From Escherichia phage UPWr_E1, in sequence record PP418985.1: a stretch of 64,000 nt of DNA; one strand, given 5' to 3'. Positions within the stretch are counted from its first letter, which is position 1. Each line of letters opens with the position of its first letter. The translations under genes and the position numbers were made by a program. This document shows, piece after piece, positions 7,754-64,000 of this stretch. The notes beneath the pieces are model-generated. The model saw only the letters and a program-made list of their open reading frames with translations, made no database searches and was not told the origin of the DNA.

Positions 7754-7764
7754 TGAAATCTATC

Positions 7765-7795
7765 AGCCATCCTTCGGGGTGGCTTTTTTGTTTTT
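7765..7795 (+). terminator. rho-independent terminator
   Basis: GCCATCC-TTCG-GGGTGGC followed by TTTTTTGTTTTT. Confidence 0.7.
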
Positions 7796-7800
7796 AGTGC

Positions 7801-8467: not shown

Positions 8468-8905
8468 ATGAAATTCCGCAAAAACCACGTAGCAATGAAA
8501 AAAGCAATGTTTGAAGCATTCAAAGCAGTTGATCAGGGCGGTGTTACTCTGATTGAGCAAATTAATGTTGATGTTTGGCAGTCTCCGGCGATCACTTGCT
8601 CACGTCTGGCGACGGCTGGTCTTCTGAATGTTCACAGCTCTACAGCATACGACGAAGCATTGCAAGTTATTAAGGCTTTCGCTGGCGACGTTACCAGCAA
8701 GTGGGTCTATGAGAATAAAGGTGAAATTGCGGTTGCTCACGTAGGCAACAATATCCAGATGGAAATCAAGATTAAGGAAGGGTCTAAACGCAATCAGATG
8801 CTTGTTCGCTTCCAGCCATACAAAACTAACGTAGTGCCGGATGATCTGGTCATCTCTAAGAGTAATGTTACCATTCGCCGAAATCAGATCGTTATCAACA
8901 AATAA
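8468..8905 (+). CDS. hypothetical protein
   Basis: AGAGGTGA RBS; 145 aa; followed by a strong terminator. Confidence 0.6.
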   Translation: MKFRKNHVAMKKAMFEAFKAVDQGGVTLIEQINVDVWQSPAITCSRLATAGLLNVHSSTAYDEALQVIKAFAGDVTSKWVYENKGEIAVAHVGNNIQMEIKIKEGSKRNQMLVRFQPYKTNVVPDDLVISKSNVTIRRNQIVINK

Positions 8906-8914
8906 TTAACATTA

Positions 8915-8938
8915 GCCGTCCTTCGGGGCGGCTTTTTT
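8915..8938 (+). terminator. rho-independent terminator
   Basis: GCCGTCC-TTCG-GGGCGGC followed by TTTTTTGT. Confidence 0.75.
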
Positions 8939-8992
8939 GTATATATCATTAACATAATTTTAGTTTACATATGCACATTATTAATACAGTTT

Positions 8993-9030
8993 GATTAAAT
9001 TATGATCAAAACGAAGAAAGATCTTTAGAA
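8993..9030 (+). repeat. intergenic repeat copy A (GATTAAATTATGATCAAAACGAAGAAAGATCTTTAGAA)
   Basis: 5' 25 nt repeated at 9142-9166; 3' part CAAAACGAAGAAAGATCTTTAGAA identical to 46843-46866. Confidence 0.7.
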
Positions 9031-9141
9031 CATAGAAAATGTATCTTTGATTAATTATTAATCACCACATATTGTAACGCAAATGTTATACTCCGTAGGA
9101 GTTCGCGAAGCGATATCCTTTTGTGTAGTTTTTACATATAT

Positions 9142-9197
9142 GATTAAATTATGATCAAAACGAAGACTTATCTTATAGAATAATAAAAATTTGTTTC
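9142..9197 (+). repeat. intergenic repeat copy B
   Basis: GATTAAATTATGATCAAAACGAAGA ... TAGAATAATAAAAATTTGTTTCG; 3' 23 nt identical to 46862-46884. Confidence 0.7.
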
Positions 9198-9319
9198 GAA
9201 CATTTATTAATCAATTACTAGAAGTGTTTTATTGCTCGCTGTGCTCGCTTCCGCTACGCGGATACTTGTATTTGTTATTAACTTGTAGTATGATATTGCT
9301 TTCTATGGAGGAAAATATT

Positions 9320-9907
9320 ATGTTTGACCAGTTACAAGATCTATTTGGAGTAAAACCACTTCGTAGATGTGCTTTAATCGGCTCTAGAAAAGCGCCTAGC
9401 GACATTTTGATAATGGCTAGTACCATTGGGAGGGTATTGTCAGAAAATCGCGTTGTAGCGCATTCTGGAGGGGCTTACGGTATGGACAATGCTTTCATGA
9501 AGTATTACGATCCAGATTATAGAAAAATTTTCATTCCAAATTGGAAGTTTTATGACCACAAGCATAACGGTCATGATGTGATTGCATGGCAAACCTTAGA
9601 ACAAAAGAATCTGGCGATGGATGAATTAGAACACGTTTATGATAATCCTCGTTCTATACCGTTATACATGCAAAATTTATTTTCTAGAAATGTTGCTCAA
9701 GTCTTAGGTGAGACACTTGATGATCCTGTAGATTGTGTGTTATTCTGGGCGAAAGAAGTTAATGGAATCGTTTCGGGAGGAACTCGAATTGCTGTTTATG
9801 TTGCCCGTAGACATGGGATACCATGTTTTAACTTATATCATCAAGAAAATAGATCCGCCGTCGAAAAAATCTTGGGCGGATCTGATTTGTCTTGGTTAGA
9901 TATTTAG
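9320..9907 (+). CDS. SLOG-superfamily (DprA/LOG-like) Rossmann-fold protein
   Basis: GGAGGA RBS then ATG 9320; GSRKAP ... HSGGAYGMDNAF resembles the DprA GSR/SGxAxGID motifs; ORF-track start 9191 has no RBS. Confidence 0.55.
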   Translation: MFDQLQDLFGVKPLRRCALIGSRKAPSDILIMASTIGRVLSENRVVAHSGGAYGMDNAFMKYYDPDYRKIFIPNWKFYDHKHNGHDVIAWQTLEQKNLAMDELEHVYDNPRSIPLYMQNLFSRNVAQVLGETLDDPVDCVLFWAKEVNGIVSGGTRIAVYVARRHGIPCFNLYHQENRSAVEKILGGSDLSWLDI

Positions 9908-12344: not shown

Positions 12345-14063
12345 TTATTGTGCTTGCTCTGGAAGTGCTTGTATATTTTCTATAGTAGCACCCCATTTAA
12401 CGGCATTTAAACGAGCTTTGTGCATATCGTCTTCTCCGACTATTGCCGCAAAACCCTTTTTAGCGTGGAAATTCGCCCATGTGTTATATGCTAGTGCACC
12501 TACGCGTTTTGCTGTGTCGTGTTCAACTTCATCAACCATCAGCATTGTGCGGAAAGGTGCAAATGCTACATCTGGGTTATCGTCTTGTGTCCATGAACCA
12601 CCATTAAACGACACCTGCCACCTGAACATCTCACCAGACGGAATTTGATTAATTCTCAACTTTAGAGATCTTGTTTTCTGGTTTTTCTGAGTTACGTCTA
12701 GTGGAACCTGATATCTAGCCGCTTGTCGTTCTCTACCATCATTCATCCTATGCCATGCGGTAACAACAAGCATAACCGGAATTGTGTTTGATGTTTTAAT
12801 AAAACTAACATCAACTAAAAGTTCCATATCATAGCTACCAGATTTAGGCGCAACCCACCAATGGTCGGCATCAGCTTGTCGATCTGGCTCTTTAATCTGT
12901 GGTGTGCATCCATAGTTATCATGAATGACATACTTCCACGGAATGTAAAAAGCACCACCGCCAGTTCCTGGATTTGTAACTTCGAGTAGATTTTGTGCAG
13001 TGGTAAACACGCTTGACACGCGAGGGAAAGCATAAATGGTAGCACCACCAGTGTGATCGCTGATCTGTAACCATTCGGTCCATCGATCAGTTCTCTTTGT
13101 ATAGGAACGGTGATACATTACGCCATCAATGCTTGTTGCGATCTGCAATACATGATCTTTACATGCATGAACATCTACAGAACCATGTGTTTGTGTTCCA
13201 TTTGGACGGTTTGCCGACCCCTCAAAGTAACAGAAACGGCCTTGTTTAGTCAAGGTGTTTAGGTCTAGCGTTTCTGGCGAAATTTCCGGTAGACGTTTAC
13301 CCAGACTGGTTAACATCGCCTCCTGATCACCATTTAAACCACCGCCACCACTTCCTTCCCCGCTTTGAGAGTTCCACTCACGCCATGCACCATTGTGTCG
13401 GATGCGAGAGTAAACACCACCATCAATAGAACGGACCACTTGAAGAATGCTACCATCGACGACATATACATCTGCGGACCCCTTATTCGCCATCATTGGA
13501 GGTTTGCCATAGGTTGCATCACCTACCGGATAGCGTCCGGGTGATGTGGTTACATCCAGATTGTTAATTGGATTCGTCGTAGTCCATTTTACCTCAATTG
13601 CAGATAGACGCTGCGCAACGTTCGCTAATACTTCTGGTACTGGAAATACAAGAGATTCCTGTGTTCCGTCTGAGTACGTGACTTCTAGAGTCCAGTTGCG
13701 ATCGTCCTCGGACAAATTCGCTTCGATTCTAGCAATGCCACGACCATTTTCGCCCTTCTCACCAGGAATACCCTGTTCACCCTGAATAACCCAGGTCATA
13801 TCGACCCATTTTGATTTATCGTAGGGAGATTGTGCTGTTTTACCAGTCCATAATTGGAGTTTTTCGCCACAAACAATAATTGTTTTTAGTCTTTCCAATT
13901 CTGGAAAATGTTCGGTAAAATATTCATCCCTAGCTTCTTCATTTTCGAAACGGTGAGTATTTTTAATTCCGCTAGGTACGTTAGTTCCGATCTGAATACC
14001 ACCACCAGAACAACCACCACTCACGGAACCAGCATTAATGATAGCTTGTGGATTTAGCTTCAT
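12345..14063 (-). CDS. fiber-like protein with collagen-like Gly-X-Y run and two knob-like repeats
   Basis: GGGGGT RBS then ATG 14063; GEQGIPGEKGENGRG; two repeats of ...DG-x-x-Y-x-R...W-x-E-W (SIDGGVYSRIRHNGAWREW, SIDGVMYHRSYTKRTDRWTEW) typical of pyocin/tail-fiber knob domains. Confidence 0.75.
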   Translation of the reverse strand: MKLNPQAIINAGSVSGGCSGGGIQIGTNVPSGIKNTHRFENEEARDEYFTEHFPELERLKTIIVCGEKLQLWTGKTAQSPYDKSKWVDMTWVIQGEQGIPGEKGENGRGIARIEANLSEDDRNWTLEVTYSDGTQESLVFPVPEVLANVAQRLSAIEVKWTTTNPINNLDVTTSPGRYPVGDATYGKPPMMANKGSADVYVVDGSILQVVRSIDGGVYSRIRHNGAWREWNSQSGEGSGGGGLNGDQEAMLTSLGKRLPEISPETLDLNTLTKQGRFCYFEGSANRPNGTQTHGSVDVHACKDHVLQIATSIDGVMYHRSYTKRTDRWTEWLQISDHTGGATIYAFPRVSSVFTTAQNLLEVTNPGTGGGAFYIPWKYVIHDNYGCTPQIKEPDRQADADHWWVAPKSGSYDMELLVDVSFIKTSNTIPVMLVVTAWHRMNDGRERQAARYQVPLDVTQKNQKTRSLKLRINQIPSGEMFRWQVSFNGGSWTQDDNPDVAFAPFRTMLMVDEVEHDTAKRVGALAYNTWANFHAKKGFAAIVGEDDMHKARLNAVKWGATIENIQALPEQAQ

Positions 14064-20000: not shown

Positions 20001-20495
20001 TTATTCTACCCAATCGATAGCAAAAGTAACTTCAAACGTTTCAACTTCGTTGTTTTGTTCCCAATCGAGGGTTACTTCACCAACGTTGGTCGGGAAAATA
20101 CCGTACAATGTTTTTTCGCTAGTTGATTCGGTGTTACGGTTAAGTTGACGAACAATAGCTTGTTTCTTATATTGTGCAGGAGTTGCACCAGTGATCGCCG
20201 ATCCAGTACCATGTGTTTGATCGCTCCACGCAACGATAGCATCACGGATCTTGTGTGCGTCATCGTTGAATACAGTGATGGTCCAGTCGTCATATACACG
20301 GTCGCCAGCGATGTTAATTTTACGGTTTTGATAACCTACAGAGATTTTTTCTACGGTTGCAGCCGGGACAGTTGCCGCTTTACACATCAGCTTAAAGTTT
20401 TGCCCCAGATAAGGGATCTCAACTTCAAACAGGTTAGGACGAGCAAAATCGCCAGACTCGAAACCGCGTGTAATATCATTCAAATCGAGTGCCAT
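20001..20495 (-). CDS. 19: tail tube protein gp19
   Basis: 164 aa; FESGDFARPNLF, NRKINIAGDR, DDWTITVFNDDAH match recalled T4 gp19. Confidence 0.95.
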   Translation of the reverse strand: MALDLNDITRGFESGDFARPNLFEVEIPYLGQNFKLMCKAATVPAATVEKISVGYQNRKINIAGDRVYDDWTITVFNDDAHKIRDAIVAWSDQTHGTGSAITGATPAQYKKQAIVRQLNRNTESTSEKTLYGIFPTNVGEVTLDWEQNNEVETFEVTFAIDWVE

Positions 20496-20737
20496 AATTG
20501 ATATTCCTTAATAGAGCGGGGATTTTATCCCCGCTTGATTTAACTTTTAATCTATGCTAATTTACTGATTATGCCTGGTTAGCTGGACCGATAATTTCGT
20601 CAAAATCAGCACCAGTTGCAACAGCAGTGAAATTGAGCATGATATAGTTGATCGATTTTGCTGGTTTGATGAACATACTAGCAACAAATTCGTTACGATC
20701 AATTACATCCGGCGTGTTGTTCGTGGTGTCGCATTGT
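20465..20737. repeat. tandem duplication copy 1 (273 bp, identical to 20738-21010)
   Basis: contains the real gene 19 start and a displaced copy of the last 56 codons of gene 18. Confidence 0.9.
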
Positions 20738-21010
20738 CGCGTGTAATATCATTCAAATCGAGTGCCATAATTGATATTCCTTAATAGAGCGGGGATTTTA
20801 TCCCCGCTTGATTTAACTTTTAATCTATGCTAATTTACTGATTATGCCTGGTTAGCTGGACCGATAATTTCGTCAAAATCAGCACCAGTTGCAACAGCAG
20901 TGAAATTGAGCATGATATAGTTGATCGATTTTGCTGGTTTGATGAACATACTAGCAACAAATTCGTTACGATCAATTACATCCGGCGTGTTGTTCGTGGT
21001 GTCGCATTGT
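20738..21010. repeat. tandem duplication copy 2 (273 bp)
   Basis: contains the real gene 18 3' end and stop plus a second gene 19 start codon that runs into an out-of-frame stop after 21 codons. Confidence 0.9.
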
Positions 21011-22848
21011 ACTCGGAAGTCATAAATGCCACCCAGAGAGCGAATCGTGCTGAGATATTGCGAAACCTCCATACGGAAGGAAGCGCGAGTAAAGTTATCG
21101 TTGTTTTCAAACAGTTTGTATTTGCTTGAATCGCCGATATTCTTTTTCAGCATGTTAAACAGACGACGAACGTTAATGCGGTCAAACGGGCTAGGAACAG
21201 TAGTAGCGGTTTTATCACCCATCAGGATAAACCCTTCACCACCAGCACCAATTACCGGGTTAATTGCAGCCTGATACAGACGATCACGGTGTGCCTTGCG
21301 AGGCTCAATAGCCAGTTTAACTACGTTCATGATCTGACCACGGTTATAACCTGCCGGACTCATCCACGGTTGAGATACCGCATCAGTGCGAGCACACAAA
21401 CCAGCAATATCAGCAGCCAACGGAACCCAGCGGTTTACATCGTTGTATTTGTCATACTGATATTTGTAGTTACCATCAATAACCGCGTAAGTGGTATTAA
21501 TGTTCATGTTGTTGTCTGAATAATTGCTCTTTCCTTCTCGCCATGCGATCAGGTTATCAATTGCGGTAGTGACCGGAATATTAACAACAGTGCTACGCGG
21601 CGGAGAAACCATCACTAAGCAATCCTGACGCTCATCACCGATGGAAACAGCATGTTTCTGTACGGTGGAGAATGCATCACCTTCACCCGCACACGCACCA
21701 GCAATCAGCAGGTTTACATGAATAGACTCACGTTCAGCAAACAGATCCCAGCCTTTCATCATTGCGCCAATAAACGGATCAGCACCAACACCAACACCCG
21801 CAGTTGCGGATTCGTTAGCAGAAACACCACCAACCAAAGAGATGATACCACTGAAACCATCTACCCAGCCCTGAGCGGTTGCATAGATGTACTGACTAGC
21901 ACCACGAGCAAAGAAGTCGTCCATATAGATAGAATTGCCGTAAACGTCTTTATCCCCTTTCAGAGTAGACAGTACATAGGATTCTACCACAACACCATCT
22001 CGACGAACAATAAACGCATATTGATTATCATTCTGCGGTGCATATGGAATCAGGTTGCGTGCTGCGGCACGAGTTCCACCGAACGGATACAGTGTCAATT
22101 CAGGTGCTGCCGCTCCGCTAAACGCGCTACGTGCCAGAATCTCAACTTCCAGAGAGTTACCAATCTCACCAGCATAGATTGCACTTACCGCTGGCATATC
22201 ATACTTTTTGAGCTTAGTCAAAAATTCTTGATTGGTGATATTGGCGCGGGAAGTCTCCAGATCCGTTAAGAGAAGACCGGAATCGGTAACAATTTTAGAA
22301 ATGGTGATCGCCGCATTTGAGTTACCAGTGCCGGAAGTGATTTCTACGGTAAACCCATCCAGATTAGGATACACGCCAACGGATTTAGCCAGAGCAATGA
22401 TTTTCCCGGTTGGGATGAAAATACCTTTAATTTTACCTTCTGTATCTACTTTGGTTACTTTACCAGCGGTTTCAACTTCCTGACGATTGTATTTTACTTT
22501 AATTGAATCGCCTACTTTGTAGTTAGAACCTTCGTTGGTAATATTAAATTCTACGTTACCCGCGAGAGTGGTGGAGTTTTTCGCTTTTTCTGTATTCAGT
22601 ACACGAACAACACGCAGGTCGTTACCATACTGGAGGAAGTTAGCCCCGCTCATGAAATAGTCTGCGGTGTTATTATCCGGCTGACCAAATTTATTAACTA
22701 ATTCAACTTCATTAGTTACTTGAATAATCTGGAAAGCTGGACCCCATTGAAATTTACCTACCAGCGCCGCGCGACCAGTCGCAGATTGTACAATGGTAGT
22801 GGAGAGAGTAGTTTCTTTCGTTTCGAAACCCGGTGATAATAGAGTCAT
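20842..22848 (-). CDS. 18: tail sheath protein gp18
   Basis: 668 aa; MTLLSPG start; GKFQWGPAFQI, NFLQYGNDLRVVR, RWVPLAADIAGLCARTD, VPSPFDRINVRRLFNMLK match recalled T4 gp18. Confidence 0.95.
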   Translation of the reverse strand: MTLLSPGFETKETTLSTTIVQSATGRAALVGKFQWGPAFQIIQVTNEVELVNKFGQPDNNTADYFMSGANFLQYGNDLRVVRVLNTEKAKNSTTLAGNVEFNITNEGSNYKVGDSIKVKYNRQEVETAGKVTKVDTEGKIKGIFIPTGKIIALAKSVGVYPNLDGFTVEITSGTGNSNAAITISKIVTDSGLLLTDLETSRANITNQEFLTKLKKYDMPAVSAIYAGEIGNSLEVEILARSAFSGAAAPELTLYPFGGTRAAARNLIPYAPQNDNQYAFIVRRDGVVVESYVLSTLKGDKDVYGNSIYMDDFFARGASQYIYATAQGWVDGFSGIISLVGGVSANESATAGVGVGADPFIGAMMKGWDLFAERESIHVNLLIAGACAGEGDAFSTVQKHAVSIGDERQDCLVMVSPPRSTVVNIPVTTAIDNLIAWREGKSNYSDNNMNINTTYAVIDGNYKYQYDKYNDVNRWVPLAADIAGLCARTDAVSQPWMSPAGYNRGQIMNVVKLAIEPRKAHRDRLYQAAINPVIGAGGEGFILMGDKTATTVPSPFDRINVRRLFNMLKKNIGDSSKYKLFENNDNFTRASFRMEVSQYLSTIRSLGGIYDFRVQCDTTNNTPDVIDRNEFVASMFIKPAKSINYIMLNFTAVATGADFDEIIGPANQA

Positions 22849-46517: not shown

Positions 46518-46772
46518 TTATAGATCGATAGCATGAGCATAACCATGTAAGAAGTCTTTTAATTCTTCCTTATTGGTAACACGCTGTAAAATCTCTAATG
46601 CCTTGTCGCGATCACGTAATGCACCTGAAAGGGATTTTATTTGGTCATCCCTTTCTGCAATCTGCTTAAGCAGATCTGTATTGCATTTAGACAAATAGAG
46701 AACTTCACCCCGCAATGTTGCCAATTCGTTGTCCAAACGATCATAGAGTTTTAACAAAATGTCTTCTGTCAT
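46518..46772 (-). CDS. hypothetical coiled-coil protein (84 aa)
   Basis: GAGGA RBS; convergent with gene 2; no homolog recognised. Confidence 0.4.
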   Translation of the reverse strand: MTEDILLKLYDRLDNELATLRGEVLYLSKCNTDLLKQIAERDDQIKSLSGALRDRDKALEILQRVTNKEELKDFLHGYAHAIDL

Positions 46773-46842
46773 AAGAAGTCCTCGTATAGTACCCGTTTTA
46801 TTTATTACTGTATAAAAATATAGTTATTGGTTAAAACATAAC

Positions 46843-46884
46843 CAAAACGAAGAAAGATCTTTAGAATAATAAAAATTTGTTTCG
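46843..46884 (+). repeat. intergenic repeat copy C (CAAAACGAAGAAAGATCTTTAGAATAATAAAAATTTGTTTCG)
   Basis: joins the 3' parts of repeat copies A and B at 9.0-9.2 kb; contains the 10-bp palindrome AAAGATCTTT. Confidence 0.7.
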
Positions 46885-46961
46885 GTTAAAAAGTAGTCAG
46901 TGCCTACGGCACGTCGCAAAGCGACAATTGTTAATAAATATTTTCATTTGAGGAATCAGTA

Positions 46962-47552
46962 ATGTCTAATCTCTTTAACTATGCTAACCCTAGCAACTGG
47001 CAGATCAATATTCCAGATGGACAACTAACAAAAGGCTTTACTTTAAATGCTCAAGGTGTTACACTTCCTGCTATAACCATTCCACCGACTAAGCAAGTTG
47101 CTGGTCAATATGGTTTGGCGGTCGCTGATTATCCGTCTAGTCATGTAGAGTTTGACCCGTTGGTAGTCCGGTTTATTGTCGATGAGCATTTGGAAAGCTA
47201 TCTAAACCTTTACACATGGATGCTTTCTATAGTAGACTACAATAACGGTAACTCCACTGCGTGGAAGGATTCAATGCCGGAAGCCGTTCAAGTTCACATG
47301 ATGGACAATGAACGCCGTAACATTGTATGCACCTTTAACTTTTATGGTTGTTGGTGTTCACAATTGGGGGAACTTGAGTTAACATACACCGATGATATGC
47401 ATGAATCTCTGGTATGTACTGCAATTCTTCCATTTAAAACAATGAGCATTGAACGTGATGGTCAACTGATCGTTCCTCGCCCTGCAATTCAGGCGGCGGA
47501 TCGTCAGCGAGTGGAAGGTATTAAAGCTATGCACCCTGCTTTTAGAAAGTAA
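46962..47552 (+). CDS. 3: tail completion/sheath stabilizer gp3 (by synteny)
   Basis: 196 aa between gene 2 and gene 1; GAGGAA RBS; identity not verified. Confidence 0.5.
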   Translation: MSNLFNYANPSNWQINIPDGQLTKGFTLNAQGVTLPAITIPPTKQVAGQYGLAVADYPSSHVEFDPLVVRFIVDEHLESYLNLYTWMLSIVDYNNGNSTAWKDSMPEAVQVHMMDNERRNIVCTFNFYGCWCSQLGELELTYTDDMHESLVCTAILPFKTMSIERDGQLIVPRPAIQAADRQRVEGIKAMHPAFRK

Positions 47553-48982: not shown

Positions 48983-49007
48983 CCCCGAAAATTTTTCGGG
49001 GTTTTTT
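48983..49007 (+). terminator. rho-independent terminator
   Basis: CCCCGAAAA-t-TTTTCGGGG followed by TTTTTTG. Confidence 0.7.
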
Positions 49008-49018
49008 GTTTTTATGTG

Positions 49019-49047
49019 TTGACAACCATAAACGACTATAGCATAAT
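49019..49047 (+). promoter_or_regulatory. PeSL-like early promoter module 1
   Basis: TTGACA-17-CATAAT, then conserved leader CATATCGAAACGAAACACAC and RBS AGGAGAATCAAA. Confidence 0.6.
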
Positions 49048-49084
49048 GCACATATCGAAACGAAACACACTTAGGAGAATCAAA

Positions 49085-49462
49085 ATGATGATGATGTTTA
49101 AAGATAAATTCGAATGTCACTACACCCGTAACTTTGACTTAGTATCCCGCTACTACATTCATAAAGAAACTGGAACGCAAGTAGTTCTTGAATCTCACAG
49201 CGAAGTAGGATTCGATTCAACAAAAGTAGCAATTAGTGCTCGCTTCTGGGATAACGGCAAATTTGCTTATATCGCTTGGAACGACGACGAAAATGTAATT
49301 ACAGTAGCTTTCGGTGATGACTACTACACTAAAAAGACTTTCGATAGTAAGCCATCAAATGAATACCTGAAAGCGTATGTGCAGCACATGTTCCAACGTG
49401 TTCTGACCGGAATGGAAATCAATGTCATGAAAGACATTGTAGACGAAGTAAAATATTCTTAA
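49085..49462 (+). CDS. hypothetical protein (125 aa)
   Basis: ATG 49085 after the conserved leader RBS; ORF-track start 49016 lies inside the promoter. Confidence 0.6.
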   Translation: MMMMFKDKFECHYTRNFDLVSRYYIHKETGTQVVLESHSEVGFDSTKVAISARFWDNGKFAYIAWNDDENVITVAFGDDYYTKKTFDSKPSNEYLKAYVQHMFQRVLTGMEINVMKDIVDEVKYS

Positions 49463-50594: not shown

Positions 50595-50809
50595 AAATGA
50601 CTTTTTATATCTTAGCAAGTATCATGCTTGTGATCTCTTCTGCACTATTTGCATTTCTTACCGTCTGGGGGATCTGTACTGATGCGAAGCCGTGGGATAT
50701 CGTAGAAAATGCGGTTATGTTCCTGATTAGTATCATGTGTCTTTTTGATGCCTTTGACTCTATAAAAGAAGAAGATCAAAAACGTCGCGAGAGAAAGCGA
50801 TATAAATAA
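50591..50809 (+). CDS. small membrane protein with basic C-terminus
   Basis: GAGGTAAAACC RBS; stop codon lies within a TATAAATA motif. Confidence 0.5.
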   Translation: MKMTFYILASIMLVISSALFAFLTVWGICTDAKPWDIVENAVMFLISIMCLFDAFDSIKEEDQKRRERKRYK

Positions 50810-50814
50810 TAGTG

Positions 50815-50984
50815 AACTAAAGACAGCGCGGTTAGAATGATTTGGACGTCACCTAGCCGCATTTATTACAGCGTATGGGATTGATCCGGTATGCTAAAGC
50901 ATTCACTTGCTAGGCCGCTAGCAGGTTGGAGACAAGGAAGATTCGCTACCTTCCCTATAAGCCACTCTTCGGAGTGGCTTTTTT
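50815..50984 (+). ncRNA. candidate small RNA (about 170 nt, no ORF)
   Basis: TATAAATA at 50801-50808 upstream, internal hairpins, ends at a strong terminator; no ORF longer than 15 codons; not tRNA-like. Confidence 0.25.
50961..50984 (+). terminator. rho-independent terminator
   Basis: GCCACTC-TTCG-GAGTGGC followed by TTTTTT. Confidence 0.75.
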
Positions 50985-51011
50985 ATTGCCTAAAATTTTT
51001 TAAAAAAGTTG

Positions 51012-51040
51012 TTGACTCCAGGTCCAGCCTATAGCATAAT
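51012..51040 (+). promoter_or_regulatory. PeSL-like early promoter module 3
   Basis: A-tract, TTGACT-17-CATAAT, leader ACACACATCGAAACGAAACACAC. Confidence 0.6.
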
Positions 51041-51086
51041 ACACACATCGAAACGAAACACACTTTCTTAAACGGAGAATCAAATT

Positions 51087-51789: not shown

Positions 51790-51990
51790 ATGGATATTAA
51801 AGAGCAACTTGTATTAGTTCGAGAATCGGCTAAAGACCACGGCATGAGCGAAGAATTTGTTGAATGGTTTATTGATAACAAATTCAATCCAAGCCCAAAT
51901 TCGACTTTTAACTATTTGGCTATGTCCATTATGTGGGAAGGTTGGAAAGGCGCGGTAGAAACTGCCTTAAAAATTATGAAAAAAGACTAA
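51790..51990 (+). CDS. hypothetical protein (66 aa)
   Basis: GAGGTGA RBS. Confidence 0.5.
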   Translation: MDIKEQLVLVRESAKDHGMSEEFVEWFIDNKFNPSPNSTFNYLAMSIMWEGWKGAVETALKIMKKD

Positions 51991-51997
51991 AAAGTTG

Positions 51998-52026
51998 TTG
52001 ACACGCGAGAGGGTGTATAGCATAAT
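51998..52026 (+). promoter_or_regulatory. PeSL-like early promoter module 5
   Basis: TTGACA-17-CATAAT; hairpin GGGTGTA-tagcataa-TACACCC over the -10; leader CATCGAAACGAAACACAC. Confidence 0.6.
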
Positions 52027-52064
52027 ACACCCATCGAAACGAAACACACTAAGGAGTATCAAAA

Positions 52065-63893: not shown

Positions 63894-63906
63894 AATATAA
63901 TCAAAA

Positions 63907-63930
63907 GCCATCCGAAAGGGTGGCTTTTTT
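63907..63930 (+). terminator. rho-independent terminator
   Basis: GCCATCC-gaaa-GGGTGGC followed by TTTTTTCG. Confidence 0.75.
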
Positions 63931-63942
63931 CGTTTTTAGGTG

Positions 63943-63971
63943 TTGACAACCGGAATAGGGTATAGCATAAT
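63943..63971 (+). promoter_or_regulatory. PeSL-like early promoter module 7 (gene start lies beyond window end)
   Basis: TTGACA-17-CATAAT, then leader CACACATCGACAACAAAGGAGAATCAAA. Confidence 0.6.
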
Positions 63972-64000
63972 GCACACATCGACAACAAAGGAGAATCAAA

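What the first reader, a model, noticed from the sequence alone, without database searches (positions are those of the whole stretch)
8993..9197. Conserved ~42-bp intergenic element shared by two distant loci, with an AAAGATCTTT palindrome
CAAAACGAAGAAAGATCTTTAGAATAATAAAAATTTGTTTCG occurs intact at 46843-46884 (upstream of gene 3) and as two partial copies at 8993-9030 and 9142-9197 (upstream of the SLOG-like gene), each with the prefix GATTAAATTATGAT. It does not match late (TATAAATA) or the sigma70-type modules here, so it may be a distinct operator or promoter class or a recombination hotspot.
Basis: seen in the sequence. Interest (0 to 1): 0.45.

Follow-up and report, generated by a model that had tools for sequence, protein, structure and literature searches.

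The report
Repeated 76-base hairpin module in coliphages
The "42-bp motif" is part of a conserved 76-base hairpin-forming non-coding module, present four times in every RB49-like (Krischvirus) T4-type phage and once in a family of E. coli prophages. Its pairing is kept by compensatory mutations and its copies recombine with each other, but what it does is not established.

Summary
The window is a Krischvirus (RB49/Phi1-like) genome segment. The motif belongs to a discrete 75-76-nt imperfect palindrome. Copies are A (8990-9065), B (9139-9214) and C (46826-46900), plus a fourth copy, D, between genes 35 and 36 outside the window. Each copy points the same way as the downstream gene and is followed by one or two short GC-rich hairpins.

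Homologues occur only in the 58 Krischvirus records and in an uncharacterised E. coli prophage (56 of 5426 genomes). All 22 distinct versions fold as the same long hairpin, and 8 of 20 pairs show compensatory changes. Two divergent prophage copies rewrite the "conserved" CAAAACGAAGA yet keep the pairing. Copy B is identical in 11 phages whose flanks vary.

The AAAGATCTTT/GATC palindrome is not the conserved feature. There is no ORF, no Rfam family, no consensus promoter and no late promoter in the unit.

The copies do recombine. C and D evolve in concert, one isolate carries an ~85-kb inversion joined inside them, and homing-endonuclease genes insert next to C.

Best reading (about 0.4): a structured RNA module that also serves as a recombination substrate. 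A DNA-level site with Fis-type dyads and a selfish repeat remain possible.

The parts
8990..9065 (+). Unit A: 76-nt imperfect palindrome. It holds TTGATTAAATTATGATCAAAACGAAGAAAGATCTTTAGAAC, a 3' half of its own, and ends in TTATTAATCA.
   Evidence: Covariance-model hit of 80.7 bits. Folds as one long hairpin. 5 of 77 positions vary among 11 genomes.
9139..9214 (+). Unit B: 76-nt copy, 149 nt downstream of A. Its 5' 26 nt are identical to A and its 3' 23 nt are identical to C.
   Evidence: Covariance-model hit of 69.6 bits. Identical in all 11 Krischvirus genomes compared.
46826..46900 (+). It lies between divergent ORF130w (46518-46772, minus strand) and gene 3 (start 46962).
   Evidence: 89.7 bits. 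About 94% identical to copy D over about 110 nt.
8914..8939 (+). Intrinsic terminator of ORF165 (AGCCGTCCTTCGGGGCGGCT followed by a T run), upstream of unit A.
   Evidence: Terminator scan. Annotated as a terminator in GEC-3S.
8963..8990 (+). Weak promoter-like element GTTTAC-16 nt-TACAGT directly in front of unit A. The inferred start is near 8997.
   Evidence: Read from the sequence. Across 11 genomes the hexamer edges are conserved and the spacer varies. It falls below the scan threshold.
9098..9122 (+). GC hairpin GGAGTTCGCGAAGCGATATCC plus TTTT after unit A (terminator-like).
   Evidence: The surrounding stretch, from AAATGTTATAC through the TTTT run, is invariant in 11 genomes.
9235..9262 (+). 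GC-rich hairpins after unit B, including TCCGCTACGCGGA at 9250-9262.
   Evidence: Terminator-like hit. Invariant in 11 genomes.
9266..9294 (+). Promoter-like TTGTAT-17-TATGAT for ORF164 (DprA/SLOG-like gene, start 9321), downstream of the units.
   Evidence: Read from the sequence. Invariant in 11 genomes. Inference only.
46900..46925 (+). Two adjacent GC hairpins after unit C: GTGCCTACGGCAC and GTCGCAAAGCGAC.
   Evidence: Among genomes the variation lies in the loops (UAC/UCC, AAA/GAA) and in one G-C to G-U end pair.
46933..46940 (+). AATAAATA, a late-promoter-like box for gene 3, downstream of the module. Homing-endonuclease insertions in other phages fall between 46929 and this box.
   Evidence: RB49 late promoters tolerate A or T at the first position (PMC1524935). 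Insertion point.

Best explanation
The motif is part of a discrete 75-76-nt hairpin module. The module has an outer stem of about 7 bp (UGAUUA/UAAUCA type), a roughly 5x5 internal loop, a middle stem of 8-13 bp, and an apical region of about 25 nt containing (R/U)AUCUU. One or two short GC-rich hairpins follow it.

Shown: it is a repeat family under selection for base pairing. There are four copies at fixed loci in every Krischvirus, all in the sense of the downstream gene, and one copy in an E. coli prophage lineage. The copies also recombine with each other (gene conversion and inversion).

Inferred: the pairing acts in RNA made from the + strand. That RNA could come from read-through of the upstream terminator or from weak PeSL-like promoters. 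The module would then be an ORF-less small transcription unit or untranslated-region element. The most likely role is an RNA processing or stability signal of the interrupted double-stem type that RNase III cuts (as in the T7 intergenic sites or lambda sib), or a small RNA. Its recombination activity would be a by-product of multi-copy identity.
For: - Family and boundaries.
- Constant length of 75-76 nt in 21 of 22 distinct versions, despite unrelated interiors.
- Same long-hairpin fold in all copies.
- MAFFT alignment: 88.5% of cells paired, against 27-51% when partners are slid. Pair 15/63 occurs as A-U, C-G, G-U and G-C. Pair 17/61 occurs as U-A, U-G and C-G within the A lineage alone.
- Divergent prophage copies change the core but stay complementary: ACAUCAAAAGAG/CUCUUUUGAUGU (MFE -21.1 kcal/mol, z -4.8) and CAAACGUA/UACGUUUG.
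- With those copies added, 8 of 20 pairs show compensatory change, and 0 of 500 shuffles reach this.
- JSE copy D turns an A.C mismatch into G-C.
- G.U pairs outnumber A.C mismatches 60 to 16 on the + strand, and the + strand is the more stable in 16 of 22 versions.
- Purifying selection: unit B is invariant and unit A varies at 6.5% of positions, against 11-18% in the flanks.
- Every lineage has GC hairpins after the unit, with unrelated sequences.
- Promoter-like conservation pattern in front of A.
Against: - No transcript data exist, and no consensus promoter sits in front of B or D. In 2 of 11 D-type sequences the TACAGT box is TGCAGT.
- The inferred starts for A and for the prophage copy fall inside the 5' arm of the outer stem.
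- The outer stem shows only one-sided (wobble) changes.
- The strand bias comes mainly from the C/D and main prophage lineages. Unit B and some prophage copies fold better on the minus strand.
- Only about 6-7 independent lineages exist, and alignment A3 was fitted to the model.
- Alternative local helices also fit: columns 2-8 with 14-20, and GAAGA/UCUU.
- Pairing could equally act in single-stranded DNA or a cruciform.
Confidence: 0.4

Rival explanations
1. DNA-level nucleoprotein site. Each unit would carry two 15-bp Fis-type dyads at its ends, with centres 56 bp apart, flanking a conserved core with a central dyad GAAGA-N4-TCTT. Host Fis, perhaps with a phage protein, would bend the DNA upstream of the gene 3, gene 36 and ORF164 promoters, or would assemble a recombination or replication complex.
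For: - All six unit ends in the window match GNNYANNNNNTRNNC (consensus as quoted in PMC4245941).
- Three of the four window matches to the stringent GNTYAWWWWWTRANC are in units A and B, against 0.5 expected.
- Five of the 11-12 best matches in the 164-kb Phi1 genome are in the units.
- Invariant columns coincide with positions -8, -7, -4, -3, +3 and +7 of the Fis motif (motif features from PMC4784862).
- The constant unit length keeps the spacing constant.
- The units lie outside obvious transcription units, upstream of promoters.
Against: - The divergent prophage copies lose the inner half-sites (+3/+4 of the left site, -4/-3 of the right site) but keep complementarity.
- The main prophage lineage has C at +4 and G at -4. 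Both violate the Fis R/Y rule yet pair with each other.
- Any AT-rich hairpin closed by G-C has roughly a 1-in-32 chance of fitting the palindromic Fis consensus (my estimate).
- The loose consensus is not enriched in the window overall: 57 matches against 51 expected.
- The spacing differs from the 47 bp of the Hin enhancer (PMC3798978).
Confidence: 0.2
2. Selfish or neutral palindromic repeat, MITE/ERIC/Correia-like. It would be spread and homogenised by the very active homologous recombination of T4-type phages and by exchange with prophages, with no function of its own.
For: - Discrete ends with inverted termini (TGATTAA...TTAATCA) and a fixed length of about 76 nt.
- Unrelated flanks at each locus.
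- Patchy mosaic identity among copies, and gene conversion.
- Presence in two unrelated phage types of one host that demonstrably exchange DNA: 95% nucleotide identity over 377 nt of an LprI-like gene, and an identical terminator.
Against: - No target-site duplications.
- Only four copies, at the same loci in the Krischvirus records listed; no record among the 58 lacks the element.
- No extra or decayed copies in the Phi1 genome.
- Unit B is invariant while its flanks vary.
- Compensatory changes in the middle stem imply selection on pairing beyond the termini.
Confidence: 0.2
3. A distinct promoter or operator class. The conserved core would be a promoter, for example the -10-like TAGAAT at alignment columns 37-42 or TATGAT in A and B, for a non-sigma-70-consensus or activator-dependent mode in a phage that lacks MotA.
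For: - TAGAAT is conserved in B, C, D and the main prophage copy.
- RB49-type phages lack MotA and have no known middle promoters (PMC1524935).
- The 5' part resembles the start of early PeSL transcripts: AUCGAAACGAAAC compared with AUCAAAACGAAGA.
Against: - Copy A has TAGAAC.
- The divergent prophage copies lack both TAGAAT and CAAAACGAAGA.
- The -35 positions match TTGACA at only 3 of 6 bases (read).
- The scans find no promoter at the units.
- Covariation is not expected for a promoter.
- Downstream genes have their own late or sigma-70-like promoters after the module.
Confidence: 0.1
4. Replication or recombination initiation site. The quasi-palindrome would extrude as a hairpin in single-stranded DNA or a cruciform and be cut (gp46/47 or endonuclease VII). 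That would seed recombination-dependent replication, analogous to T4 origin and hotspot regions.
For: - Hairpin pairing is conserved.
- Recombination events map to the units.
- Several hairpins after the units use C-GAA-G loops (read). From my own knowledge these are very stable as DNA mini-hairpins.
- The prophage copy lies about 450 bp from an iteron array.
- Three GenBank records are linearised at window 46808/9, 17 nt from unit C.
Against: - The G.U excess on one strand is not expected for a cruciform.
- The stems are AT-rich and interrupted, so they are weak (-10 to -13 kcal/mol as RNA).
- The record ends may be assembler artefacts at the inverted repeat (SPAdes assembly for pEJ01).
- There is no direct evidence of an origin.
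Confidence: 0.07

Closest known systems
PeSL (promoter-early stem-loop) mobile regulatory cassettes of RB49/phi1 and other T4-like phages (Arbiol et al. 2010, PMC2839356; Comeau et al. 2014, PMC4122927)
   Same: Same phages. Both are short repeated intergenic cassettes with stem-loops. Both serve as points of homologous exchange that create indels and rearrangements and are shared between genomes. The 5' part of the unit resembles the PeSL transcript leader. A PeSL-type stem-loop lies just upstream of copy A, and a stem-loop sits between -35- and -10-like boxes in the prophage.
   Different: The unit has no consensus sigma-70 promoter. It is not directly followed by a Shine-Dalgarno sequence and ORF. 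It lies in the virion-gene block, not the hyperplastic regions. Its defining feature is a 76-nt AU-rich interrupted hairpin kept by covariation, which PeSLs lack. The true PeSL family in this window (49002, 50995, 51981, 63926) has a different sequence.
RNase III processing hairpins: T7 intergenic R sites and lambda sib retroregulator (from my own knowledge)
   Same: Intergenic position in the sense of the flanking genes. About 20 bp of helix split by an internal loop into lower and upper stems. Several copies per phage genome, with structure conserved more than sequence. In lambda, the site lies just beyond a terminator, as copies A and D do here.
   Different: No cleavage or transcript data. 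The apical part is large (about 25 nt). Copy C has no upstream gene on its strand. No sequence similarity was tested or is known.
Enterobacterial and Neisserial palindromic intergenic repeats: ERIC/IRU and Correia elements (from my own knowledge)
   Same: Imperfect palindromes of about 70-150 nt with inverted termini. They are transcribed into hairpins that alter mRNA processing, can contain nucleoid-protein sites, and act as recombination substrates.
   Different: Those have many copies, TA target duplications and presence/absence polymorphism. Here there are 4 fixed copies, no duplications and no polymorphism.
Fis-bound recombinational enhancer of Hin/Gin/Cin invertases (PMC3798978)
   Same: A unit of about 65-76 bp with a Fis-type site at each end. 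It is associated with inversion of a DNA segment that carries tail-fibre genes: copies C and D are inverted repeats flanking about 85 kb, and one isolate has the segment inverted.
   Different: The centres are 56 bp apart, not 47 bp. No serine invertase or hix/gix sites are annotated in Phi1. The crossover lies inside the repeats themselves, as in homologous recombination. The Fis matches are lost in divergent copies.

Membership tests
PeSL cassette | Strong sigma-70 consensus promoter (-35 and -10) within the motif | tested here: not met
   The consensus scans of 8850-9400 and 46700-47000 find no + strand promoter at the units. Only a weak GTTTAC-16-TACAGT lies in front of A. True PeSLs in the window have TTGACA-17-(CA)TAAT.
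PeSL cassette | Stem-loop terminator or attenuator combined with the promoter, directly upstream of a Shine-Dalgarno sequence and ORF | tested here: not met
   Terminator hairpins exist upstream of A and D, but they lie outside the unit. The units end 62-255 nt before the next start codon, and another promoter-like box lies between.
PeSL cassette | Acts as a site of homologous exchange or modular shuffling | tested here: met
   C/D gene conversion, the LF73P4 35|3 and 130|36 junctions, homing-endonuclease insertion next to C, and sharing with a prophage.
Rfam RNA families | Covariance-model score at or above the gathering threshold | tested here: not met
   No hit at gathering threshold in the window or the prophage locus. 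Only chance-level hits appear at E-values up to 10.
T4-type late promoter | (T/A)ATAAATA box | tested here: not met
   None inside the units. The boxes lie downstream of modules C (46933-46940) and D.
Structured RNA or hairpin element (generic) | Base pairs maintained by compensatory substitutions across homologues | tested here: met
   Three pairs with two-sided changes on the MAFFT alignment and 8 of 20 pairs with the divergent prophage copies added. Slid controls give 0-3. The complementarity can be read directly in L182 and L183.
RNase III processing site (T7 R-site / lambda sib type) | About two turns of helix interrupted by an internal loop, within a transcript | tested here: inconclusive
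   The geometry fits: 7 bp, a 5x5 loop, then 8-13 bp. Transcription through the units is not shown.
RNase III processing site (T7 R-site / lambda sib type) | Cleavage by RNase III | not testable with these tools
   Needs in vitro cleavage or mapping of RNA ends in an rnc mutant.
Trans-acting small RNA gene | Own promoter and terminator giving a discrete transcript | tested here: inconclusive
   A has a promoter-like element with a matching conservation pattern and a hairpin followed by TTTT. B and D lack a convincing promoter. The prophage copy lacks a U tract.
Fis-dependent element or recombinational enhancer | Two Fis sites matching GNNYANNNNNTRNNC | tested here: inconclusive
   Met at all six unit ends in the window and in copy D of Phi1. 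One mismatch per site in the main prophage copy. The inner half-sites are lost in L182 and L183. Binding was not tested.
Fis-dependent element or recombinational enhancer | Sites 47-48 bp apart, with a cognate serine invertase and crossover sites | tested here: not met
   The spacing is 56 bp against 47 bp (PMC3798978). No invertase appears in the Phi1 annotation.
MITE / ERIC-like mobile repeat | Terminal inverted repeats | tested here: met
   TGATTAA...TTAATCA (TGGTTAA...TAGTCA in C and D).
MITE / ERIC-like mobile repeat | Target-site duplication and presence/absence polymorphism | tested here: not met
   The flanks differ at all five loci. All listed Krischvirus records show four places. No extra copies in Phi1.
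Protein-coding mini-gene | Conserved ORF | tested here: not met
   No ORF of at least 30 aa lies in 8906-9190 on either strand. ATG-ATC-AAA... gives 8 and 10 codons in A and B, and there is no ATG in C, D or the prophage copies.

The most novel reading that the evidence does not exclude
The module is a previously undescribed family of structured non-coding RNA. It would be carried as an ORF-less cassette by both a virulent T4-type genus and a temperate E. coli prophage lineage. It would act in RNA processing or regulation of late structural genes (gp3, gp36) and a DprA/SLOG-like gene. Its two inverted copies, C and D, would in addition allow reversible inversion of the ~85-kb virion-gene block.
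Probability: 0.3. Interest if true: 0.6.

Novelty: new variant of a known kind. Interest (0 to 1): 0.5.

Why it matters
T4-type phages are thought to have very few repeats and little structured non-coding RNA. The only repeat family described in RB49-like phages is the PeSL promoter-terminator cassette.

This module is a second, different family. It is an ORF-less hairpin element under selection for pairing, fixed at four loci next to late structural genes. It is shared with a temperate prophage that also exchanges coding genes with these phages.

If it is an RNA signal, it offers a way into post-transcriptional control in a T4 relative that lacks the MotA middle mode. If it is a protein-binding site, it would link the host nucleoid protein Fis to a virulent phage.

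Either way, it explains a concrete structural polymorphism, the inversion between genes 3 and 36. It is also a likely cause of assembly ambiguity in a genus widely used for phage therapy.

Tried and rejected
- **Known RNA families.** Rfam scans of the loci, the whole window and the prophage locus found nothing.
- **Coding potential.** No conserved ORF.
- **Promoters and terminators.** The sigma-70 and terminator scans show no promoter at the units. I also looked by eye for other sigma-factor, CRP, FNR, IHF and hix/gix-like consensus sites. These were either absent or not conserved across copies, and none was tested with a tool.
- **GATC/AAAGATCTTT as the functional core.** Rejected, because copy B and the main prophage copy lack it.
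- **Wider distribution.** None of these searches found homologues outside Krischvirus and the one E. coli prophage family:
  - the phage collection in distant mode;
  - IMG/VR pattern scan;
  - metagenome pattern scan;
  - GTDB species representatives.
- **Extra diverged copies.** A covariance-model search of the full Phi1 genome and the prophage loci found none.
- **A shared cognate binding protein.** Shared proteins exist between prophage and phage (LprI-like/ORF262, a gp37-like fibre, an ORF130.1-like endonuclease), but none lies next to the units in both genomes.
- **Local hairpin H1 (columns 2-8 with 14-20).** It is supported in Krischvirus but is lost in prophage copy L183. The long hairpin is therefore preferred.
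- **Fis pair.** Attractive at first, then downgraded after the divergent copies.
- **Literature.** One literature search returned nothing relevant. The 2002 RB49 paper (PMC135041) is not held. The PeSL paper does not mention ORF164, ORF165 or ORF130, and its supplements are not held.

Full report
**What the window is, and the observation.** The two loci are 95-99% identical to 58 phage records, all Krischvirus (RB49, Phi1, JSE and relatives). Copy A (from 8993) shares its first 24 nt and copy B (from 9142) shares its last 23 nt. A and B share 26 identical nt, including GATTAAATTATGAT.

**Anatomy.** The repeat is a discrete 75-76-nt unit: A 8990-9065, B 9139-9214, C 46826-46900. A fourth copy, D, lies outside the window between genes 35 and 36 (Phi1 149925-150000).
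- All four copies point the same way as the gene downstream: ORF164 (a DprA/SLOG-like gene), gene 3 and gene 36.
- None is inside an obvious mRNA leader. A and D follow the terminator of the upstream gene. C lies in a divergent region next to ORF130w.
- In every case the downstream gene has its own promoter-like box after the module: AATAAATA for gene 3, TATAAATA for gene 36, and TTGTAT-17-TATGAT for ORF164.
- Every unit is followed by one or two short GC-rich hairpins whose sequences differ between loci.
- C and D share the unit plus both hairpins, about 110 nt at about 94% identity. A and B share only the unit.

**Distribution.** In the phage collection the element occurs only in the 58 Krischvirus records, and the records listed each show four places. 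Pattern scans of IMG/VR, metagenomes and one genome per prokaryotic species added only Krischvirus contigs and one other group.

That other group is a chromosomal E. coli prophage, present in 56 of 5426 complete genomes. Its terminase is only 44% identical to the nearest isolated phage. The prophage unit sits in a 1.4-kb non-coding region between a leftward Rha-type operon and a rightward operon, about 450 bp from an iteron array. It is 75-77% identical to the phage units over 75-84 nt while the flanks are unrelated.

The same prophage and Krischvirus demonstrably exchange DNA. An LprI-like gene (Phi1 ORF262) is 95% identical over 377 nt, a gp37-like fibre is 69% identical, and a terminator is identical. 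A covariance model of the unit finds no further copies in the complete Phi1 genome.

**Structure.** Each unit folds as one long interrupted hairpin: an outer stem, a roughly 5x5 internal loop, a middle stem and an apical region of about 25 nt.

On a MAFFT alignment of 20 distinct versions:
- 88.5% of cells pair, against 27-51% when the partners are slid.
- Pair 15/63 occurs as A-U, C-G, G-U and G-C with no unpaired case.
- Pair 17/61 runs U-A, U-G, C-G within the A lineage alone.
- JSE copy D converts the A.C mismatch at 19/59 into G-C.

Two divergent prophage copies (80-85% identical to the main type) are decisive. They replace the "invariant" CAAAACGAAGA with CAAAAGAGAGA or CAAACGTAACT, and the 3' arm changes to match. 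One gives a perfect 13-bp stem (-21.1 kcal/mol, z -4.8) and the other gives CAAACGUA/UACGUUUG. With these included, 8 of 20 pairs show two-sided changes, 0 of 500 shuffles reach this, and slid controls give 0-3.

Caveats: that alignment was fitted to the model, and there are only about 6-7 independent lineages.

G.U pairs outnumber A.C mismatches 60 to 16 on the + strand, and the + strand is the more stable in 16 of 22 versions. The bias comes mainly from two lineages. A local hairpin (columns 2-8 with 14-20) and a small GAAGA/UCUU helix are alternatives within Krischvirus. The local hairpin is lost in one prophage copy.

**Selection.** Among 11 Krischvirus genomes, unit B is identical throughout and unit A varies at 5 of 77 positions. 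By comparison, 11% of positions vary in the ORF165 coding sequence, 18% in 8906-8989 and 14% in the A-B spacer. In C and D the variation falls in the predicted loops.

In front of A, GTTTAC and the edges of TAC(A/T)GT are conserved while the 16-nt spacer varies, which is the pattern expected of a weak promoter. The prophage has TTCAGT, then a hairpin, then CAT(A)GAT in the same place, a PeSL-like layout. B and D lack a convincing promoter.

**Recombination.**
- C and D evolve in concert. One metagenomic phage has the same private variant (ACGTAACC) in both copies, and D-type bases appear in some C copies. ECD7 copy D carries the A/B-type loop.
- Krischvirus LF73P4 has gene 35 joined to gene 3 through a chimeric unit, together with the reciprocal ORF130w-to-gene 36 junction. 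This is an inversion of about 85 kb between the inverted copies C and D. I cannot exclude an assembly flip, but either way the repeat is the breakpoint.
- In AV108, phiS and an IMG/VR contig, an HNH-AP2 homing-endonuclease gene sits exactly between the C module and the gene 3 late box.
- Three records are linearised at window 46808/9, 17 nt from unit C. One of them is a SPAdes assembly.

**What it is not.**
- It matches no Rfam family and has no conserved ORF.
- It has no late promoter box and no consensus sigma-70 promoter.
- It is not a PeSL as defined by Arbiol et al. (PMC2839356). The true PeSLs of this window are a different family, although the 5' part of the unit resembles their transcript leader.
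- The AAAGATCTTT/GATC palindrome is lineage-specific.

**A lead that weakened.** Both ends of every Krischvirus unit fit the Fis consensus, and the invariant columns are the Fis-critical ones. However, the divergent prophage copies lose the inner half-sites. The main prophage type also violates the R/Y rule at two positions that still pair with each other. An AT-rich hairpin closed by G-C will often mimic the palindromic Fis motif.

**Mechanism.**
- Shown: a repeat family selected for intramolecular pairing, strongly conserved, and recombining.
- Inferred: the pairing acts in + strand RNA. I rate this reading at about 0.4. The module would be an ORF-less cassette or untranslated-region element. 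An interrupted 20-bp helix just beyond a terminator recalls RNase III sites (T7 R sites, lambda sib; from my own knowledge), with a small RNA as the alternative.
- Because all promoters lie downstream of the modules, exchange between C and D leaves every gene with its own promoter. That would make the inversion tolerable.
- Rivals: a DNA-level Fis or other protein assembly site (0.2), a selfish or neutral palindromic repeat (0.2), a novel promoter or operator (0.1), and a hairpin-triggered replication or recombination site (0.07).

**Novelty.** I found no description of this element in the literature held here. It behaves like known intergenic palindromic repeats and like PeSLs in promoting exchange. 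It fails the PeSL definition and has its own conserved fold, so I rate it a new variant of a known kind. Interest is moderate.

Noticed in passing
window 20465-21010: A perfect 273-bp tandem duplication (two 100%-identical copies). It spans the 3' end of gene 18 (tail sheath, ORF 20842-22848, minus strand), the 18/19 spacer and the first 31 nt of gene 19 (ORF 20001-20495). Phi1 has only a 73-nt gap here. This is either a real duplication or an assembly artefact.
   Followed up: partly
window 50801-50985: A TATAAATA late-promoter box (50801-50808) is followed by about 150 nt of GC-rich non-coding sequence that ends in a strong terminator (50961-50985). It folds at -67.7 kcal/mol with z -4.25, has no Rfam hit, and corresponds to the Phi1 ORF117/118 gap. 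It is a candidate late-expressed structured RNA.
   Followed up: partly
window 49002-49085, 50995-51078, 51981-52064, 63926-63989; terminators 7762-7796, 8911-8945, 50957-50991, 63903-63937: The classical PeSL family: TTGACA-17-(CA)TAAT, then the leader ATCGAAACGAAACACAC. Its UUCG- or GAAA-loop terminators are distinct from the element studied here.
   Followed up: partly
L095 (E. coli NZ_CP035865) 13477-13675: An array of six to eight TTTCAGGGGCAAAAAT iterons at about 21-bp spacing, next to two tandem consensus sigma-70 promoters (13705-13761), in the prophage's 1.4-kb non-coding region. It is a possible origin or packaging site.
   Followed up: no
L095 18409-18785 vs Phi1 158320-158696; L054 1998-2021 vs window 50961: Very recent DNA exchange between the temperate prophage and Krischvirus. 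The 5' part of an LprI-like gene (Phi1 ORF262) is 95% identical, and a 24-nt terminator is identical. The prophage tail fibre is 64% identical at the amino-acid level to gp37.
   Followed up: partly
window 46808/46809: Three independent GenBank records (kvi MN850615, pEJ01 OP114734, Skers MW748999) begin or end exactly here, 17 nt upstream of unit C. The cause could be an assembly break at the inverted repeat, copying of a reference start point, or a physical end.
   Followed up: partly
L168 (AV108) 1292-1825; also phiS and IMG/VR contig L013: A 177-aa HNH-AP2 type homing-endonuclease gene is inserted between the C module and the gene 3 late promoter. Phi1 carries a different endonuclease (ORF130.1) on the other side of ORF130, with a homologue in one prophage contig (L024).
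   Followed up: partly
L172 692-853, L178 200-289, L181 322-417 (Shigella phage SSG23): Small 'hypothetical protein' ORFs annotated in SSG23 lie in the same three intergenic regions as the units. L181 322-417 overlaps unit C, and the L172 ORF lies just after unit B. They are on different strands at different loci and are probably annotation artefacts.
   Followed up: no
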